Source of the DNA: Styela clava
Taxonomy: Eukaryota
Length of the DNA: 64,000 nt
NCBI RefSeq assembly: GCF_964204865.1
Contig: NC_135258.1
Coordinates: 18,104,001 to 18,168,000, forward strand
Reading direction: 5' to 3'
Within the stretch, counting starts at the first letter, position 1. Each line of letters opens with the position of its first letter. Below are positions 21,001 through 57,000 of this stretch, piece by piece. The position numbers are program-made.

Positions 21001-24000
21001 TCAAGTAATGATTCTGGATCATTCAATTGCTCACGGTATGAGTAAATATATCATCTTGTCGAAACTTCCCTGGTTAACTTTCCAAATATTACTTTTGAGT
21101 TGATTTAAATTTCTGGCAAGTCTTGTTACGACTGGAAAAGGCTTTCTTTCTAAGCAGCAAGCGTACAAATTTAGGCAACCCACTATGCTTCACAGCCCAT
21201 GGCAGCCCGTAAGAAGGTTCGCACAAATGCATTCGCAATAACTTTTGCCAATTTAAAAGGTTATATACTTCAAGGTACTAGTAGACTGAAATTATGTGAA
21301 TTTATTTTAAAACTCTTGAATCTTTACAAGCAGTCTTGGGTTTCTTTGATATACGCTAAGTCAAGTGACGCTTGTCCAACACACATGTTGCAGCGTTCCT
21401 CAACAGGATTACAATTTTCCTTTTCATTTGTGAGGGAGAGTTCTATATTAATCTTTTTAGTATTACGGTAATAAGTATTTGTGCACAAAAATTCAAACTA
21501 TACCAAAACAGAGAGTTGCGTATATCCTTGGTGATATACGTTGAAGATTAAACAACTAAAACTTAGTTCATGCATGGGGAAGGAGAAGTTTGGGAGTCAT
21601 TACACTACTTACCGTACATGTTGGGGAATAATTTTGATATTTAGACTTATCACAATCTTCGTAGAAGTGAACTTCATGTTTTAGTGAACAAGCAAAGTTT
21701 CAGACAAGGCGTAATTTATTTGTTTCAATCAATGCCCCACAATGGAACAAGAAAATCAGCATAACATGGATAAATATAACAAATGAAAAAGGAAGTAAGG
21801 ACTTAATAAATTAGAAATATTAAAGAAAATAAAAACTGCTCACGATGAGCACATGATTTATCACATTCTAACAATGCATGTAGATTAGATGAGAAAGGTA
21901 TTCGCTTTCCATTTTTAGATAATTTTTCTTTACAGTATTGCTAAGGATGCTAGGAACATATATTAGAGTACTACATATGCCAATTGGAAACATAGGATTT
22001 CAATTCTTTCTCTCTAATTACATCTGCCTAGGTGAAAGATCACAATTGAAAAAAGATAAACAAACATCTCCTTGAGAGTATGTAAATGAAAGTTTCAAAC
22101 ATTTTTCAACAAAAGTAGGCAATACACAAGTAAAATTCAGCGGAATATAAGATATAAAAGAAAGTTGATAATTAAAACATTTTGTGTAGAAACAAGTAAA
22201 ATAATATACGAAGGTAAAATATTTAGAAAAAGTAAATAAACTACATAAAACACATTAAAATTGATATTCATAACATTAGACAAAGAAAAAAATATAAGCA
22301 AATCAAGGTAGAAACGAAAAATATGTGGAACATGATTAGAAAACGCCATGGCAATCAGCTTCTTTTATTCAGTACATATGACGACAGACTGTTTTAACGC
22401 AGAACTAGGGTTACTTCATAAATAAAGATTGCACAGAATATGAACAAGAATACATACTTCCATGGAGTACAAAAACAGCTGGGTTCAATTTTTGAACCGA
22501 GGCATGAACAATTACATTACACAGGTGTAGTCGTGACTTGTGTGGGTCGGTCTGGAACGACAATAACTGAGCTTTGAACTTCATCATCCCCTTGAGATTC
22601 TCCAAGAAATGTGGAAAACCTGGCTTGAGAGCTATTCGGTGAAGCAATTTCTGCCACTCTGTTGTTGGTGTCACTTGATATTGCATAGGTCCGAGTTCGT
22701 TTTGGCTCGGTCACTAAAAATATTCAAATATATCGCTGTTTTTTTTTTTTGCTCAATTCAATATATTACTGAGTTGATCTATCATAAATTGGAACTTAAA
22801 ATAGGGTTCAAACTTTGCATCTCTGTGTGAATAAAAAACGTTTTCATATTTTCTTCTAAATTTGGTGTTATCGTTAGGAATGTACATTAGAGATAGGGTG
22901 GTCCAAACCCATTCCCGTGGACCACATGTGGCCAGCGTAATCATTTGTAGCCCGCATCACATTTGTTAGAGGGTAATCAAAGAATAGCATTTGGTGTTCT
23001 TTCATCATAAAAATACCAGAGTAACCTTTTGACATAATGTTACATCACTAATTTCATTGAATTGGCTAGTGTTATGGCTAGCTAAGACAACCAGCAAATT
23101 TAAATAGTGTTCTTGCCTAGCTTAAATTGTTACCTAGCTTTCCGTATTTTCAGTTGGGGATATCCGCTAACAATAGCCCAATTTCATAAACAACCTAAAA
23201 TCTAACGAGGAATCAATTCGGCTGGGTTGACTATGACTAATGATAGCTGTTGTGGCCTAAAATATACTCCATGCCGCATTGTCTTTTGCAACCAGCCTAA
23301 AAAGTAACATAAAAATGCTGCCTATGTCAGAATATTTAGTGATTAGCCTCCTGTAAATCACATTTGGTAAAATTTAGTAATCAATCAATTCGGAGTGATT
23401 TTGCAAGTTATTTTGTAAACATGAGTTTAACTGGATATGGGAGGGGGAATACCATAATGCTTGAAATATCTGCAAGTTGCATCGGTGCCAAAAAAATATA
23501 ATTTAAAACAGCACTTTGAATGCTTGTGGTATTTAACACAGTAAAGAGATTTTGTTTTGAGAATCTTATCGATAATCGAAAGCACTTCTTTCGTTATAAA
23601 GAGACTGGAATCTAAAACTAAATGTTGATATAGAAAGATTGATCAATGTTAAATAATGATCAAAGTGTCTGCACAATTAGGGTGTTTGTTTTATATTGTG
23701 GTGTTTACATGTTTTTGCCTTGTCGCCCGCGAACAATGCAAAATAATTTTGTGGATCCAGACGCTGTATACCTTGGACCACCTCCTCGTTATAGATAATG
23801 ACAGGTTTTAATGGAATATTTCGATAAATTGTTTATTCTCAGCAGAGCTATGGTGTCTCAAGCCTCTGACTCCAAAGTCCGAGCCATTGGAAGAAGAAAT
23901 AACTCCAATATCAATAAAAACTCTGTTCAAATGGCAATTTTATAGTTTTTTCATAGGGGATTAAAACATTTCAATACCAAAAGTAATTACTAGCCCCCAC

Positions 24001-54000: not shown

Positions 54001-57000
54001 CTAAAGAATGGGACGGTACGAAACAACAGCAGTACCAAACAACGACAGCATGAAATCATCTATCAGATGATTGGCGGCCCAGCATCATCTGCTCTAGTCT
54101 AGACAAACTTAAATGAACAAACACGAATTGAAGCCGATTTAGGAGACCAAGCGCGAACCACAATTGATAGCAGACGATTTCAGCAATGCTATAGTATTGA
54201 TGTAAACTCGTGCACACGCACGATTGTAATATGCATAATATTTCACTTACCTGGACTGCAGTTTTGCATCCATTGTAAGGAACTATTAGTCGAACAAAAT
54301 TAAAACCTTTTTCAGATATCTTCTTATGTTCACGAACTGAACATCCATAGCTTGTAACGAGAACAATGTTAGAATAATCTGTAAATAAAATTTACAAGCG
54401 CCCCCTATAAAAGATCAGTATGAAGTACTTTTGTCCCCGGAACTTTGGAGTAAATAGAAGTTCATAGCATTTAGTGTACACGATTAAATATTGAAAGATC
54501 ATTTTGGGCATTGAAAACTTGATAAACAATTAATAGTTATCGCGTCTGCGGTATGCGGTATATCTATACATCGTTCCATCTTGTGAGATTTAACAATTAT
54601 TCAATATGAAATTAAAATAAAATTTTAAGCAGTCGAAGCGGATGTGTTCTAAAGATCACAAACTCATAAAGTACGATCATCAAACGATTCACAAACTAAT
54701 GGCATAAAATGTGCCGTACACGCCAAAGCATCGCCGTGTCCGAGCGGGGGTGACCACTTCGTTTGACTTGGCGGGATATACGTCACAAAAATTGACGATA
54801 TTAGATCTGAGAAGTTGATATCTTATGAACTCAACGGTACTTACTTTTATAACCTTCTAGTAAATCGGTAGGTATATCCACAACTGCTTCGGTCATCTTG
54901 CACTGGTAATAAACGCATGAAGAATTTTTCCCATCCACAGCATTCATTGCCCCGCCTTTTACATCGCGACACCGAGGTAAATCCAGGTAAGTATATGCGT
55001 CCGCTACATGTAGTAGTGCTAAATACGCGACAGTAATTTGCAGAAGACATAATCTTTGTGTCCGGCATTGTGACATTCTAGTAATCCGACCAAAATGAAG
55101 AATGCGTCGTTTTGCTTACAAAAGTAAATAGATTCTGCAATGACAACACGAATTTTTGTTGGATACTATACCTTCGATTAGATTATTGCAACTGCATAAT
55201 AATAAAATAACACTCCGATCTAAAAACCTAGTCCTTATACAACAACGATGTGAACTCAACTGCCCACTACCTCGGTGACTTATTAAGGTTACGGGGCAAC
55301 ATTTAGAAGAGATTTTGATTCGAAAAATTCCAAGTGATTGGAGCAATAAATATTCTGCTAAATCCGTACCACGAGTTTTGTGGATATCGCCAAGTATATA
55401 CAGTATATACTAAAAGATTGGCGAATTTATTGCGCCTAAATTAAACGGTACCAATGATTCTAATGTAATGTTGTGATTCGTGGTCTATTATAAAACCAAC
55501 TGCGTCCATACATCTGGAGCAATTGATTAAAAAAGTTAATATAACAAATCATAAAATATAATGTATTATAATATCAAAAAACAATCGCATATTCACCTTG
55601 CTTATTTGTGTAGATGATAAGACGCTATAATTCCCAACCAAGTATTCTAACGTAAATTAAAACAACGGAACTCCTCATCGGTGCCTGTCAGAGACCACGT
55701 ATAGCACGCCAACAAGTACAAATGTGACAACTAGACGTCACGTGATAGATAAAATAAACGCGTTTGTGATAATTTACCAATTACCCTTCTCAGATTGGCG
55801 GGAGTGTGGTGAGGTTGCATTGGCATTGTGCAGGCATTTTATTGACGGTGATATATGATATTTTTATACCCGATAATGCCAAGTGTTAATTCAGAGGATC
55901 ATTTTTCACAAGATTTTAAAACTCCCATATAATATTAGTGTTAAAAAGGAGCACACAAATTTTTGATCCCTTTATTTCGAATCGTTTAACGATTCCACGG
56001 TTTACGCTATTTAGGAATATGTACAATAATACTTCCGTCGATTTAGTCTATTTTAGTTGGCAGACTTCAATACAACAGTTTAAAAAAACATTACATATAT
56101 ATGTACAATTTCTTTAATATGCACAATCATATGAGCCCTGTTCCATTTGGTTGAGGGCTAAAATCCGGATTCTTAATGTGGCTTTCGTAATTTTCGCAAG
56201 TTTTTTTCTATACTTCATATGTTGACCATTTTAGTATCTGCTATATTCATGTTGTATCTCAATCGCTAGCAAAAGTTTTCACTTATAATCTCAACGCCTT
56301 TCTCGGTTTAGGATTACGTCTTGGCGGCTTTTTTGGCGATTGCGGAAACAACGTCTCTTTGTTGTCTGTATAGTTTGGTCATACTCTTTAAAAAACACGC
56401 TTGACAATAATCCTCTTCTGGATTAGCGGACACTGAGGGTGAACTCGAGTAAAAATATTTTTTTTTCGTAATTGAGCGGGTCTCATTTTAAAAATTATGT
56501 TAATTACTTCTTTATTCGTGCTAGCAATTTCGTGCTCTAGGAGTCTAGGTGAAGCGCTCTAACACGAAGTATACTCTTATTCTATTATTCTCCCATTCTA
56601 TTATTATGCTGCATATGATTTTAGGAGGAAGAACAGCCAAAGCGATATATTCCAAACATTAATAAACGGAAGCGAATTAGTTCGCCGAATTTAAAAGCGT
56701 GTAAAGCTTTGAGAATGGAATTGAGACCGAAGTGCTGATTTTCAATTCAGATTAGCGATTATTGTGTAAATGCGTGAGTACCACGTGGAATCATCATCTG
56801 ATTTTCAGTATATCTTAGGCACGGTAATATTAACGTTGTTTGTGTTTATTTCATCAATTCTTTGATAAAAAAAACACGAATGGAGATTGACGTACAATTG
56901 ATTAAAAACAATCGCACGTGAATTGAGATAACGGGATAACAAAACGAAGTAATCGGCATACCTTTAAATCATATAACTGTCAAGTCCCAGTGATATAATT

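What the first reader, a model, noticed from the sequence alone, without database searches (positions are those of the whole stretch)
22517..55076. Giant ZP-anchored mosaic protein that looks like a furin-processed lectin/mucus polyprotein
Seen: exons join into signal peptide, ZP-N, IgGFc-binding (FCGBP-type) domain, CTL, 2x[EGF, furin site, beta domain, pentraxin-like, CTL, VWA-like, S/T stalk], EGF, ZP module, RRKR, TM and a tail ending TTPV. Besides the normal ZP release site (RRKR, 26080-26091) there are two internal R-x-K-R sites at equivalent positions in the repeats (RYKR 45316-45327, RRKR 36314-36324). Established: ZP modules polymerise after furin cleavage, and FCGBP, pentraxin and CTL domains are mucosal or pattern-recognition modules. 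Inference: one precursor yields several lectin-bearing subunits plus a filament-forming subunit, for example in a feeding mucus net, gut barrier or egg coat. I do not recognise this architecture from any described protein.
Basis: partly seen in the sequence, partly recalled or inferred. Interest (0 to 1): 0.8.

Follow-up and report, generated by a model that had tools for sequence, protein, structure and literature searches.

The report
Giant sea-squirt ZP matrix protein gene
A 48-exon gene of the sea squirt Styela clava encodes a 3020-residue membrane-anchored matrix protein with a filament-forming ZP module and three furin-type cutting sites; the gene is real and uncharacterised, but it belongs to a familiar general kind.

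Summary
On the minus strand, 55076 to 22520 (stop 22519-22517), 48 exons with 47 of 47 GT-AG introns encode exactly the public 3020-aa protein 'uncharacterized protein LOC120339071 [Styela clava]'. Tools confirm a signal peptide, an IgGFc_binding-type domain, C-type lectin-like domains, EGF domains, a uromodulin-like EGF+ZP module, RRKR, one transmembrane helix and the TTPV end. An 11-exon module of about 650 aa is duplicated: 25.5% identity, z about 30, and 12 of 12 intron phases identical. The whole protein holds only three R-x-[KR]-R motifs. Three domain calls got no tool support: N-terminal ZP-N, 'pentraxin-like' (weak ConA-like leads only) and 'VWA-like'. The motifs EPN, QPD and WND, the pentraxin signature and the MIDAS motif are all absent, so 'lectin-bearing' is doubtful. 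No other protein of similar length and no paper with this architecture was found. The principle has precedents: uromodulin, ascidian HrVC120/HrVC70 and CiVC57, and alpha-tectorin (recalled). Verdict: a real, lineage-specific new variant of the ZP-anchored mosaic matrix precursor. Cleavage into three fragments is plausible but untested, and the tissue is unknown.

The parts
22517..55076 (-). Whole coding region of Styela clava LOC120339071: 48 exons, 3020 codons plus the stop codon (22517-22519)
   Evidence: Exact mapping of P0001, 47/47 GT-AG introns; source name
54996..55076 (-). Signal peptide, residues 1-27, ending ADA
   Evidence: Translation. Read by eye as n-region, hydrophobic core and A-x-A; no predictor was run
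52079..54914 (-).
   Evidence: Cys spacing 31/25/35 against 42/26/41 in the true ZP-N. SW against that ZP-N gives z 2.65, with 15/500 shuffles as good. No Pfam hit
49022..49789 (-). IgGFc_binding (FCGBP N-terminal type) domain core, exons 7-8; it may extend over exons 5-11 (47611-50711)
   Evidence: Pfam PF17517: exon 7 matches profile 5-97 at E 0.0042; exon 8 matches profile 107-158 at E 2.6e-7, 30.6 bits against cut-off 25.6. Not listed in the whole-protein scan
46369..47165 (-). C-type lectin-like domain 1 (exons 12-13, residues about 613-746)
   Evidence: Weak PDB matches to snake-venom CTL-like chains at 613-691, E 0.19-0.32. Pfam reports 2 Lectin_C stretches but places only the best one, in CTLD-2. 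No EPN, QPD or WND
45314..45988 (-). T/A-rich linker (exon 14), EGF-1 (exons 15-16, residues 777-811) and a conserved tail ending RYKR
   Evidence: PDB factor XII EGF at 777-811, E 4.2e-4; alignment A3
45316..45327 (-). Internal furin-type motif RYKR (residues 839-842), last codons of exon 16
38164..43964 (-). Module 1 (exons 17-26, residues 843-1521). It comprises an unassigned ~100-aa segment (43559-43964), a possible ConA-like/LamG-like segment (41866-43194), CTLD-2 (40293-41530) and an unassigned ~170-aa segment (38164-39632)
   Evidence: Lectin_C at 1241-1341, E 6.5e-12. DC-SIGNR at 1172-1298, E 7.5e-4. Atlas gives ConA-clan leads at 0.88 only. The other segments have no hits
36774..38002 (-). 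Mucin-like S/T-rich stalk (exons 27-28; 42.3% S+T over residues 1541-1800)
36314..36448 (-). Exon 29: half an EGF (2 Cys) plus a conserved tail ending in RRKR. RRKR is residues 1828-1831 at 36314-36324; its last codon is completed by base 36117 of exon 30
30366..36117 (-). Module 2 (exons 30-39, residues 1832-2443), a diverged copy of module 1; CTLD-3 lies at 31737-32611
   Evidence: SW score 207, z about 30, 25.5% identity over 596 columns. 12 of 12 intron phases match and exon sizes are similar. Neuronal pentraxin-1 match only at E = 1
29714..30019 (-). T/P-rich linker and EGF-3 (exon 40; EGF at residues 2507-2546)
   Evidence: Pfam EGF E 6.6e-5 on the stop-free stretch that holds exon 40 and E 7.9e-5 on P0001; uromodulin alignment
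26704..29435 (-). ZP module: ZP-N (exons 41-42, 27895-29435) and ZP-C (exons 43-44, 26704-27262); 10 Cys
   Evidence: Pfam ZP-C at 2696-2822, 40.7 bits against cut-off 24.6. The stretch holding exon 44 scores E 1.6e-6. Uromodulin at 2509-2826, E 3.5e-6. Cys list
26080..26091 (-). Consensus furin cleavage site RRKR (residues 2831-2834), 6 residues after the last ZP-C Cys and 52 residues before the TM helix
24290..24361 (-). Single transmembrane helix (residues 2887-2910)
   Evidence: The only Kyte-Doolittle peak of 1.9 or more; translation
22520..24289 (-). Cytoplasmic tail, about 109 aa (rest of exon 46, then exons 47-48), ending TTPV. TTPV has the form of a class I PDZ ligand; that motif definition is recalled
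44334..45305 (.). About 1-kb mariner-derived non-autonomous element in intron 16; not part of the protein
   Evidence: Pfam HTH_48 and HTH_32; terminal inverted repeats of about 300 bp and a second copy
24480..25470 (.). Second copy of the same element, in intron 45; not part of the protein
   Evidence: 87.9% DNA identity to the first copy; HTH_48 E 2.4e-9

Best explanation
This is one gene, Styela clava LOC120339071. It encodes a 3020-aa type I membrane glycoprotein precursor of the ZP-module family. Shown: the order of parts. They are a signal peptide and an N-terminal region holding an FCGBP-type IgGFc_binding domain, a C-type lectin-like domain and an EGF. Then come two diverged copies of a ~650-aa module (unassigned segment, possible ConA-like segment, C-type lectin-like domain, unassigned segment). 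A 260-aa mucin-like stalk separates the first copy from the second, and a short T/P linker follows the second copy. Last come a uromodulin-like EGF+ZP module, RRKR, a TM helix and a 109-aa tail ending TTPV. Inferred mechanism: the precursor travels to an apical cell surface. A proprotein convertase or another trypsin-like protease cuts at RRKR 2831-2834 and removes the membrane-anchored propeptide, as established for ZP proteins. This frees the ZP module to polymerise into extracellular filaments that carry the large glycosylated ectodomain as side arms. The two internal R-x-K-R sites, kept in register in both module copies, are probably also cut. That would give three fragments of about 815, 989 and 1003 aa; only the last carries the ZP module. 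Whether the first two stay attached non-covalently is unknown. The binding specificity is probably not classical Ca2+-dependent sugar binding. The tissue (egg coat, tunic/epidermal matrix or gut/branchial mucus) cannot be told from sequence.
For: Gene and architecture: exact 48-exon map, public model; IgGFc_binding, Lectin_C, EGF, ZP-C, uromodulin EGF+ZP; one TM helix, one signal peptide. Duplication: SW 207 against a shuffle mean of 42.2, sd 5.5, maximum 58 in 100 shuffles, and 12/12 matching intron phases. Cleavage sites: only 3 R-x-[KR]-R in 3020 aa, with a chance of 3 or more of 0.002. The two internal ones lie at the ends of the paired exons 16 and 29. Fragments 1 and 2 have even Cys counts (22 and 18), which fits self-contained disulfides. 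Mechanism precedent: uromodulin assembly depends on a specific proteolytic cleavage that activates the ZP domain (PMC4755741, abstract start in the listing). HrVC120 is cut upstream of its ZP domain to give HrVC70 (PMC9265791 passages). Drosophila Piopio shows furin-sized fragments (PMC6331135 passage).
Against: No transcript, peptide or expression data were available, so the single-transcript model and all cleavage are untested here. I could not see what evidence the public model rests on (searches did not complete). No orthologue was found, so conservation of the sites across species is unknown. For alpha-tectorin, furin did not affect release despite a tetrabasic site (PMC10802356 passage), so a motif alone does not prove use. 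HrVC120 is cut by a trypsin-like protease, not by furin. Functional signatures are missing: no EPN, QPD, WND, pentraxin signature or MIDAS motif. Four module segments have no assigned fold. The whole-protein Pfam scan did not list IgGFc_binding.
Confidence: 0.5

Rival explanations
1. Same gene and same ZP-driven filament, but the internal R-x-K-R sites are not cut, or only rarely. The protein then works as one giant, mucin-bearing ZP chain, like Drosophila Dumpy.
For: Motifs alone do not prove use: alpha-tectorin has a tetrabasic site, yet furin had no effect on its release (PMC10802356). Giant uncut ZP matrix proteins exist, for example Dumpy at 2.5 MDa (PMC6331135). The accessibility of the sites is unknown, because the model has a mean pLDDT of 30.5.
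Against: Three motifs against 0.29 expected by chance. The two internal ones are kept in register after divergence to 25.5% identity.
Confidence: 0.3
2. It is specifically an egg vitelline-coat component. It would be made in the gonad and processed like HrVC120/HrVC70, with the released N-terminal fragments acting in gamete recognition. This would also explain the fast divergence and the lack of detectable orthologues.
For: Ascidian vitelline coats are built from ZP proteins with EGF repeats and a C-terminal TM; CiVC57 also has a von Willebrand factor domain (PMC8849226 and PMC9265791 passages). HrVC120 is cut upstream of the ZP domain. Exon 19 has no relative among 1.84 billion representatives, which fits rapid evolution.
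Against: There are no expression data. The architecture differs from the vitelline-coat proteins described in those passages: only 2.5 EGF domains, plus IgGFc_binding and a mucin stalk. The long cytoplasmic tail with a PDZ-type end is not described there. The primary proteome paper was not held.
Confidence: 0.2
3. The 3020-aa model is a prediction artefact that fuses two or three neighbouring genes.
For: The model is computational as far as I could see. The two longest introns inside the repeated part (1349 nt and 1562 nt) each hold a transposon remnant.
Against: There is only one signal peptide and one TM helix in the whole span. Modules 1 and 2 start directly after the R-x-K-R motif, in frame and with matching intron phases. 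All 47 introns are GT-AG, each with a unique solution.
Confidence: 0.05

Closest known systems
Uromodulin (vertebrate EGF IV + ZP module, filament-forming)
   Same: EGF directly followed by ZP-N and ZP-C with 10 Cys, then a cleavage site and a membrane anchor. Best solved-structure match: residues 2509-2826, E 3.5e-6. Polymerisation after proteolytic release is established for uromodulin (PMC4755741 and PMC7737619, abstract starts).
   Different: Uromodulin is about 640 aa (recalled), with other N-terminal domains (recalled). It has no IgGFc_binding domain, no C-type lectin-like domains, no duplicated module, no mucin stalk and no internal tetrabasic sites. It is released by hepsin, and its anchor is GPI (recalled), not a TM helix with a tail.
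Ascidian vitelline-coat ZP proteins HrVC120/HrVC70 and CiVC57
   Same: Same animal group. The layout is signal peptide, N-terminal interaction domains, EGF, ZP, and for CiVC57 a TM. HrVC120 is cut upstream of the ZP domain, so a non-ZP fragment (HrVC70) is produced from a ZP precursor (PMC9265791 and PMC8849226 passages).
   Different: Those proteins are dominated by 12-24 EGF repeats. Cleavage is at a single Arg by a trypsin-like protease (HrOvochymase), not at R-x-K-R. The passages read describe no IgGFc_binding domain, C-type lectin-like domain, mucin stalk or duplicated 650-aa module. No sequence relation was tested, because no comparator sequence was fetched.
Alpha-tectorin
   Same: A large ZP-anchored precursor. 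From memory (Legan et al. 1997, not seen here), it is processed into three polypeptides, of which one carries the ZP domain. It has a tetrabasic site (PMC10802356 passage).
   Different: It is GPI-anchored and built of NIDO and VWD-type domains (recalled). Furin did not affect its release in the assay of PMC10802356. No sequence similarity was seen in any search here.
FCGBP (IgGFc-binding protein)
   Same: It shares the N-terminal IgGFc_binding domain family PF17517.
   Different: No VWD, C8 or TIL repeats were found in the Pfam scan of P0001. FCGBP has no ZP module (recalled).
Drosophila Dumpy and Piopio (apical matrix ZP proteins)
   Same: Giant or furin-processed ZP proteins of the apical extracellular matrix, anchored in the membrane and remodelled by proteases (PMC6331135 passages).
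   Different: Their N-terminal repeats are unrelated, and no sequence match was seen here.

Membership tests
ZP-module proteins | ZP-C domain above Pfam's gathering score | tested here: met
   PF00100, 40.7 bits against cut-off 24.6, residues 2696-2822. The stretch holding exon 44 alone scores 28.7 bits
ZP-module proteins | ZP-N with four conserved Cys directly before ZP-C | tested here: met
   The uromodulin alignment covers 2509-2826 with aligned Cys. Cys at 2552, 2594, 2620 and 2661. Pfam gave no ZP-N hit on exons 41 or 42
ZP-module proteins | Consensus cleavage site, external hydrophobic patch and membrane anchor after ZP-C | tested here: met
   RRKR at 2831-2834 and a TM helix at 2887-2910. 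The hydrophobic patch was read by eye only, in the 52-aa spacer, so that part is inconclusive
ZP-module proteins | Polymerises into filaments after cleavage | not testable with these tools
   This needs native material or microscopy
Proprotein-convertase (furin-type) polyprotein substrates | R-x-[KR]-R motifs at domain borders | tested here: met
   3 of 3 motifs lie at borders (839, 1828, 2831). Chance of 3 or more is 0.002
Proprotein-convertase (furin-type) polyprotein substrates | Actual cleavage at those sites | not testable with these tools
   No peptide data
FCGBP family | IgGFc_binding N-terminal domain (PF17517) | tested here: inconclusive
   Exon 8 scores 30.6 bits against cut-off 25.6, and exon 7 has E 0.0042, with collinear profile parts. 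The family is not listed in the whole-protein scan at E <= 1. Profile positions 159-297 are unmatched
FCGBP family | Tandem VWD-C8-TIL units | tested here: not met
   None among the 6 families listed for P0001
C-type lectins (sugar-binding) | C-type lectin fold (PF00059) | tested here: met
   E 6.5e-12, 2 stretches; DC-SIGNR E 7.5e-4
C-type lectins (sugar-binding) | Ca2+/sugar triad EPN or QPD plus WND (motifs recalled) | tested here: not met
   0 occurrences of EPN, QPD or WND in 3020 aa. EPK is aligned to the EPN of DC-SIGNR
Pentraxins | Pentraxin domain or signature H-x-C-x-[ST]-W-x-[ST] (motif recalled) | tested here: not met
   No Pfam Pentaxin hit. Signature absent. Best PDB match is neuronal pentraxin-1 at E = 1 over 44 residues. 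Atlas gave only ConA-like clan leads at 0.88
VWA domains | VWA fold and MIDAS D-x-S-x-S (motif recalled) | tested here: not met
   No Pfam, PDB or Atlas hit. No D-x-S-x-S. The fold itself is untestable, because the model has pLDDT 30.5
Mucin-like domains | Long S/T-rich stretch | tested here: met
   42.3% S+T over residues 1541-1800. Glycosylation was not tested

The most novel reading that the evidence does not exclude
LOC120339071 is a true extracellular polyprotein. One ZP-anchored precursor is cut at three conserved tetrabasic sites into three different subunits built largely of lineage-specific folds: four segments have no detectable relative among 1.84 billion representatives or in the PDB. 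The subunits reassemble on a ZP filament. This would be a tunicate-specific way of building a functional surface matrix (egg coat, tunic or feeding mucus) with binding domains that are not classical lectins.
Probability: 0.2. Interest if true: 0.55.

Novelty: new variant of a known kind. Interest (0 to 1): 0.35.

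Why it matters
ZP-module proteins build egg coats, urinary and inner-ear matrices and invertebrate cuticles. What hangs on the filament decides what the matrix binds. This ascidian gene joins an FCGBP-type domain, three non-canonical C-type lectin-like domains, a mucin stalk and a duplicated module of unassigned folds to a uromodulin-like ZP anchor. 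Its tetrabasic sites are kept in register in both copies. If the sites are used, it is a clean natural example of a ZP polyprotein in the sister group of vertebrates. It would also be a handle on how Styela clava, an invasive fouling species, builds one of its surface matrices. If they are not used, it is one more large uncharacterised matrix gene. In either case the gene is already in the public annotation, so the gain is interpretation, not discovery of a locus.

Tried and rejected
Whole-frame translation for Pfam was not accepted because of stop codons, so I scanned stop-free stretches and in-frame exons instead.

Exon-by-exon Pfam scans covered 48 distinct stop-free stretches. Seven had a family at E <= 0.01. 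One is Cadherin_C_2 over the TM helix, which I take as compositional. Ten exact in-frame exons gave 0 of 10 at E <= 0.01.

BLASTP between stop-free stretches of the two modules gave only weak collinear matches (best E 1.6e-4), and none at E <= 1e-3 in the all-against-all run. The duplication was settled by the alignment of the stored protein and by the intron phases.

The search for homologous proteins gave nothing beyond the protein itself. Exon 19 with 'longer': 0 of 177 candidates (only proteins of 257-2000 aa were searched). P0001 whole: 1 of 8000 scored candidates, itself (S/T-rich words may have crowded the list). ZP region: 1 of 2213, itself. Proteins shorter than 1661 aa were never searched with the ZP region, so ordinary-sized ZP relatives remain unexamined.

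Two-sequence exon-pair profiles against the PDB gave nothing: best E 2.5 and 0.61, both to unrelated proteins.

Atlas: exon 19 gave leads below 0.9 only, and exon 24 gave no usable hit.

AlphaFold2 without an alignment on module 1 gave mean pLDDT 30.5, with 0 of 713 residues at 70 or more. I ran no fold search on it, and I left the second structure job unused because no alignment could be built.

Literature: 'LOC120339071' is in 0 papers. 'Styela clava' with 'zona pellucida' gave 1 paper, judged unrelated from its title and abstract start; I did not read it. IgGFc-binding / ZP domain / C-type lectin / tunicate gave 0. 'IgGFc-binding protein' with 'ascidian' gave 3 mollusc papers. 'Styela clava' / C-type lectin / pentraxin gave nothing specific among the 12 listed of 748. 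So 'not in print' rests on these five searches of the held library only. Yamada 2009 and Sawada 2004 were not held, and no supplements were asked for; the Ciona vitelline-coat proteome tables could bear on the claim. PMC4360185 held nothing on tectorin processing, so the 'three polypeptides' of alpha-tectorin are recalled.

Orthologues in other tunicate genomes therefore stayed unchecked.

Full report
**What is there.** The window is AT-rich (31-37% GC) and holds no N. The minus strand between 55.1 kb and 22.5 kb carries many short stop-free stretches whose translations read like extracellular domains. I searched the window exon by exon and did not join exons for any search.

One exon (exon 19, 114 aa) was scored against 1,835,955,588 representative proteins. 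It found exactly one protein at E <= 0.001: P0001, 3020 aa, 99% identical over the exon. A source names it 'uncharacterized protein LOC120339071 [Styela clava]'. The contig is therefore from an ascidian, not from a human.

P0001 maps residue for residue to the minus strand as 48 exons (9060 nt), from the ATG at 55076 to the last codon at 22520, followed by TAA. All 47 of 47 introns are GT-AG, and every junction has a single solution. The last Arg codon of the second site is split across intron 29.

**Domains that tools confirm.**
- Exon-by-exon Pfam scans covered 48 distinct stop-free stretches. They gave IgGFc_binding on two successive exons that match successive parts of the profile (5-97 at E 0.0042; 107-158 at E 2.6e-7, 30.6 bits against cut-off 25.6).
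- The same scans gave EGF (E 6.6e-5), the Lectin_C end motif (E 0.0042) and ZP-C (E 1.6e-6, with the preceding exon collinear at E 0.13).
- On the stored protein, Pfam lists Lectin_C (E 6.5e-12, 2 stretches), ZP-C (40.7 bits against 24.6) and EGF (2 stretches), but not IgGFc_binding.
- Against PDB sequences the best match is uromodulin, EGF plus the whole ZP module (2509-2826, E 3.5e-6). Then come EGF domains at 777-811 and 2506-2546, and DC-SIGNR at 1172-1298.
- There is one hydrophobic helix (2887-2910) and one N-terminal signal sequence.
- Other features are a 260-aa stretch with 42.3% S+T, 50 N-x-S/T sequons and 74 Cys.
- The protein ends in TTPV.

**The duplication.** Residues 801-1494 and 1790-2414 align over 596 columns at 25.5% identity. 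The Smith-Waterman score is 207, against a shuffle mean of 42.2, sd 5.5 and a maximum of 58 in 100 shuffles. Taken exon by exon, the signal is uneven:
- 0 of 300 shuffles reach the observed score for exon pairs 16/29 and 17/30.
- 1 of 300 reach it for pairs 19/32 and 23/36.
- 5 to 26 of 300 reach it for pairs 18/31, 20/33, 22/35, 24/37 and 25/38.
- 66 and 157 of 300 reach it for pairs 21/34 and 26/39, which carry no signal alone.

Independently, the 12 introns that follow exons 15-26 have the same phases as the 12 that follow exons 28-39 (2,2,2,1,0,1,1,2,0,0,1,1). The paired exons also have similar sizes. The '2x' reading is therefore right, with one correction. In the second copy the first half of the EGF is replaced by an S/T-rich mini-exon, so only a half EGF with 2 Cys remains.

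**The basic sites.** R-x-[KR]-R occurs three times in 3020 residues, at 839, 1828 and 2831. Shuffled sequences give a mean of 0.29, and 0.2% of 2000 reach three. The third site lies 6 residues after the last ZP-C Cys and 52 residues before the TM helix, which is the classical position of the ZP release site. The first two end the paired exons 16 and 29, about 30 residues after the EGF Cys, and follow a conserved stretch (alignment A3). They lie in register (839+989=1828) in two copies that otherwise kept one residue in four. That is the best argument that the sites are under constraint.

If all three are cut, the fragments are 28-842 (815 aa, 22 Cys), 843-1831 (989 aa, 18 Cys) and 1832-2834 (1003 aa, 31 Cys, with the ZP module). 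Even Cys counts in the first two fragments fit self-contained disulfides. This is an inference.

**What is not confirmed.**
- N-terminal 'ZP-N': the support is a 4-Cys spacing like that of the true ZP-N and a weak alignment score, with 15 of 500 shuffles as good. There is no Pfam hit, but Pfam also missed the true ZP-N on single exons, so this test is weak.
- 'Pentraxin-like': there is no Pfam hit and no signature motif. The best PDB match is neuronal pentraxin-1 at E = 1 over 44 residues. The Atlas gave leads of 0.83-0.88, all below the 0.9 mark, to a sialidase lectin domain and Laminin_G families. A ConA-like fold is a lead, no more.
- 'VWA-like' and 'beta domain': no hit in Pfam, the PDB or the Atlas, and no D-x-S-x-S motif.
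- The single-sequence AlphaFold2 model of residues 843-1555 is unusable (mean pLDDT 30.5, 0 of 713 residues at 70 or more).
- The C-type lectin-like domains lack EPN, QPD and WND altogether. EPK is aligned to the EPN of DC-SIGNR. Classical Ca2+-dependent sugar binding is therefore unlikely. The motif definitions are recalled.

**Relatives and literature.** No other protein of 1661-5285 aa scored with the whole protein (1 of 8000 scored candidates, itself) or with the ZP region (1 of 2213, itself). Nothing of 257-2000 aa scored with exon 19 (0 of 177). These searches depend on shared words and on length bands. Proteins shorter than 1661 aa were not searched with the ZP region.

Five literature searches found no paper on this gene or architecture. 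Passages I read state the following:
- Ascidian vitelline coats are built of ZP proteins.
- HrVC120, made of 12 EGF repeats, an incomplete EGF and a ZP domain, is cut after Arg668 by a trypsin-like protease to give HrVC70 (PMC9265791).
- Amphioxus egg-coat ZP proteins carry LDLa and vWFA domains and consensus furin sites (PMC3543715).
- Uromodulin assembly depends on a specific cleavage (PMC4755741, abstract start).
- Furin did not release alpha-tectorin despite a tetrabasic site (PMC10802356).
- Dumpy is a 2.5-MDa ZP matrix protein, and Piopio shows fragments attributed to furin (PMC6331135).

That alpha-tectorin is processed into three polypeptides is recalled; I did not see it here.

**Most likely working.** Shown: the gene, its architecture, the duplication and the motif pattern. 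Established for the family: a ZP module kept inactive by its C-terminal propeptide polymerises once it is cut at the site before the membrane anchor. Inferred: this protein is delivered to an apical surface, possibly held there through its PDZ-type tail. It is released at RRKR 2831-2834 and forms filaments whose side arms are the glycosylated modules. The internal sites are probably cut in the secretory pathway or outside the cell, giving three subunits. I put 0.5 on this whole chain, about 0.95 on the gene and architecture, and about 0.5 on internal cleavage. The tissue cannot be told.

**Comparison and novelty.** It works like a ZP-anchored mosaic matrix precursor (uromodulin, HrVC120, CiVC57, alpha-tectorin, Dumpy), and it meets the sequence criteria of the ZP family. 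It is not an FCGBP, because it has no VWD units. It is not a demonstrable pentraxin or VWA protein, and it is not a canonical sugar-binding C-type lectin. The combination of parts and the duplicated module with in-register tetrabasic sites were not found elsewhere. I rate it a new variant of a known kind, in a locus that the public annotation already lists as uncharacterised. Interest: 0.35.

**Surroundings.** Upstream and downstream lie ordinary genes: a signal peptidase subunit, a methyltransferase, an ACAD9-like gene and a synapsin first exon. Two copies of a 1-kb mariner-derived element sit in introns 16 and 45. No paralogue of the gene lies elsewhere in the window.

**Limits.**
- No tunicate genome or transcriptome collection was open to me.
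- Supplements were closed and not requested.
- I used the stored public protein P0001 whole in six searches, and typed one part of it once.

Noticed in passing
window 44334-45305 and 24480-25470: Two copies of a ~1-kb mariner-derived element, 87.9% identical, each with terminal inverted repeats of about 300 bp. One lies in intron 16 and the other in intron 45 of the gene. Only stop-free pieces with the Mos1-type HTH remain, so they look non-autonomous.
   Followed up: partly
window 48534-48914: A 188-bp unit present in 2.0 tandem copies at 97% identity inside intron 8.
   Followed up: no
window 7713-8252 (-): An intronless 180-aa ORF matching the signal peptidase subunit SPC22/SPCS3 over its full profile (E 1e-60).
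   Followed up: partly
window 11289-12257 (+): An intronless 323-aa class I SAM-dependent methyltransferase (Methyltransf_23/12/25). By eye it looks like the METTL2/6/8 type; this was not tested.
   Followed up: partly
window about 13700-20150 (+): A multi-exon acyl-CoA dehydrogenase gene of the ACAD9/ACADVL type (Acyl-CoA_dh_1 and ACAD9-ACADV_C hits on two stretches). It ends about 2.4 kb from the 3' end of the ZP gene, on the opposite strand.
   Followed up: partly
window 856-1128 (-): A stop-free stretch with the synapsin N-terminal region (E 1.4e-12), probably the first exon of a synapsin gene that runs off the window.
   Followed up: no
window 58467-59294 (+): A 276-aa stop-free stretch with no Pfam family. 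It lies 3.4 kb upstream of the ZP gene's start, on the other strand; its nature is unknown.
   Followed up: no
window 53065-53802 (+): A 245-aa ORF (TTG start) on the opposite strand inside the 2069-nt intron 2, with no Pfam family. It may be chance or a repeat remnant.
   Followed up: no
window 36774-36827 and 45549-45630: In module copy 2 a 54-nt S/T-rich mini-exon (exon 28) stands where copy 1 has the exon for the first four EGF cysteines (exon 15). The intron phase is kept, so the second 'EGF' is a half domain.
   Followed up: yes
P0001 residues 282-434 / window 49022-49789: IgGFc_binding is found when the two exons are scanned alone. It is not listed when the whole 3020-aa protein is scanned at E <= 1, and it is absent from the precomputed Pfam list of the public protein. 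This is probably an effect of filtering or bias correction on the long S/T-rich protein.
   Followed up: no
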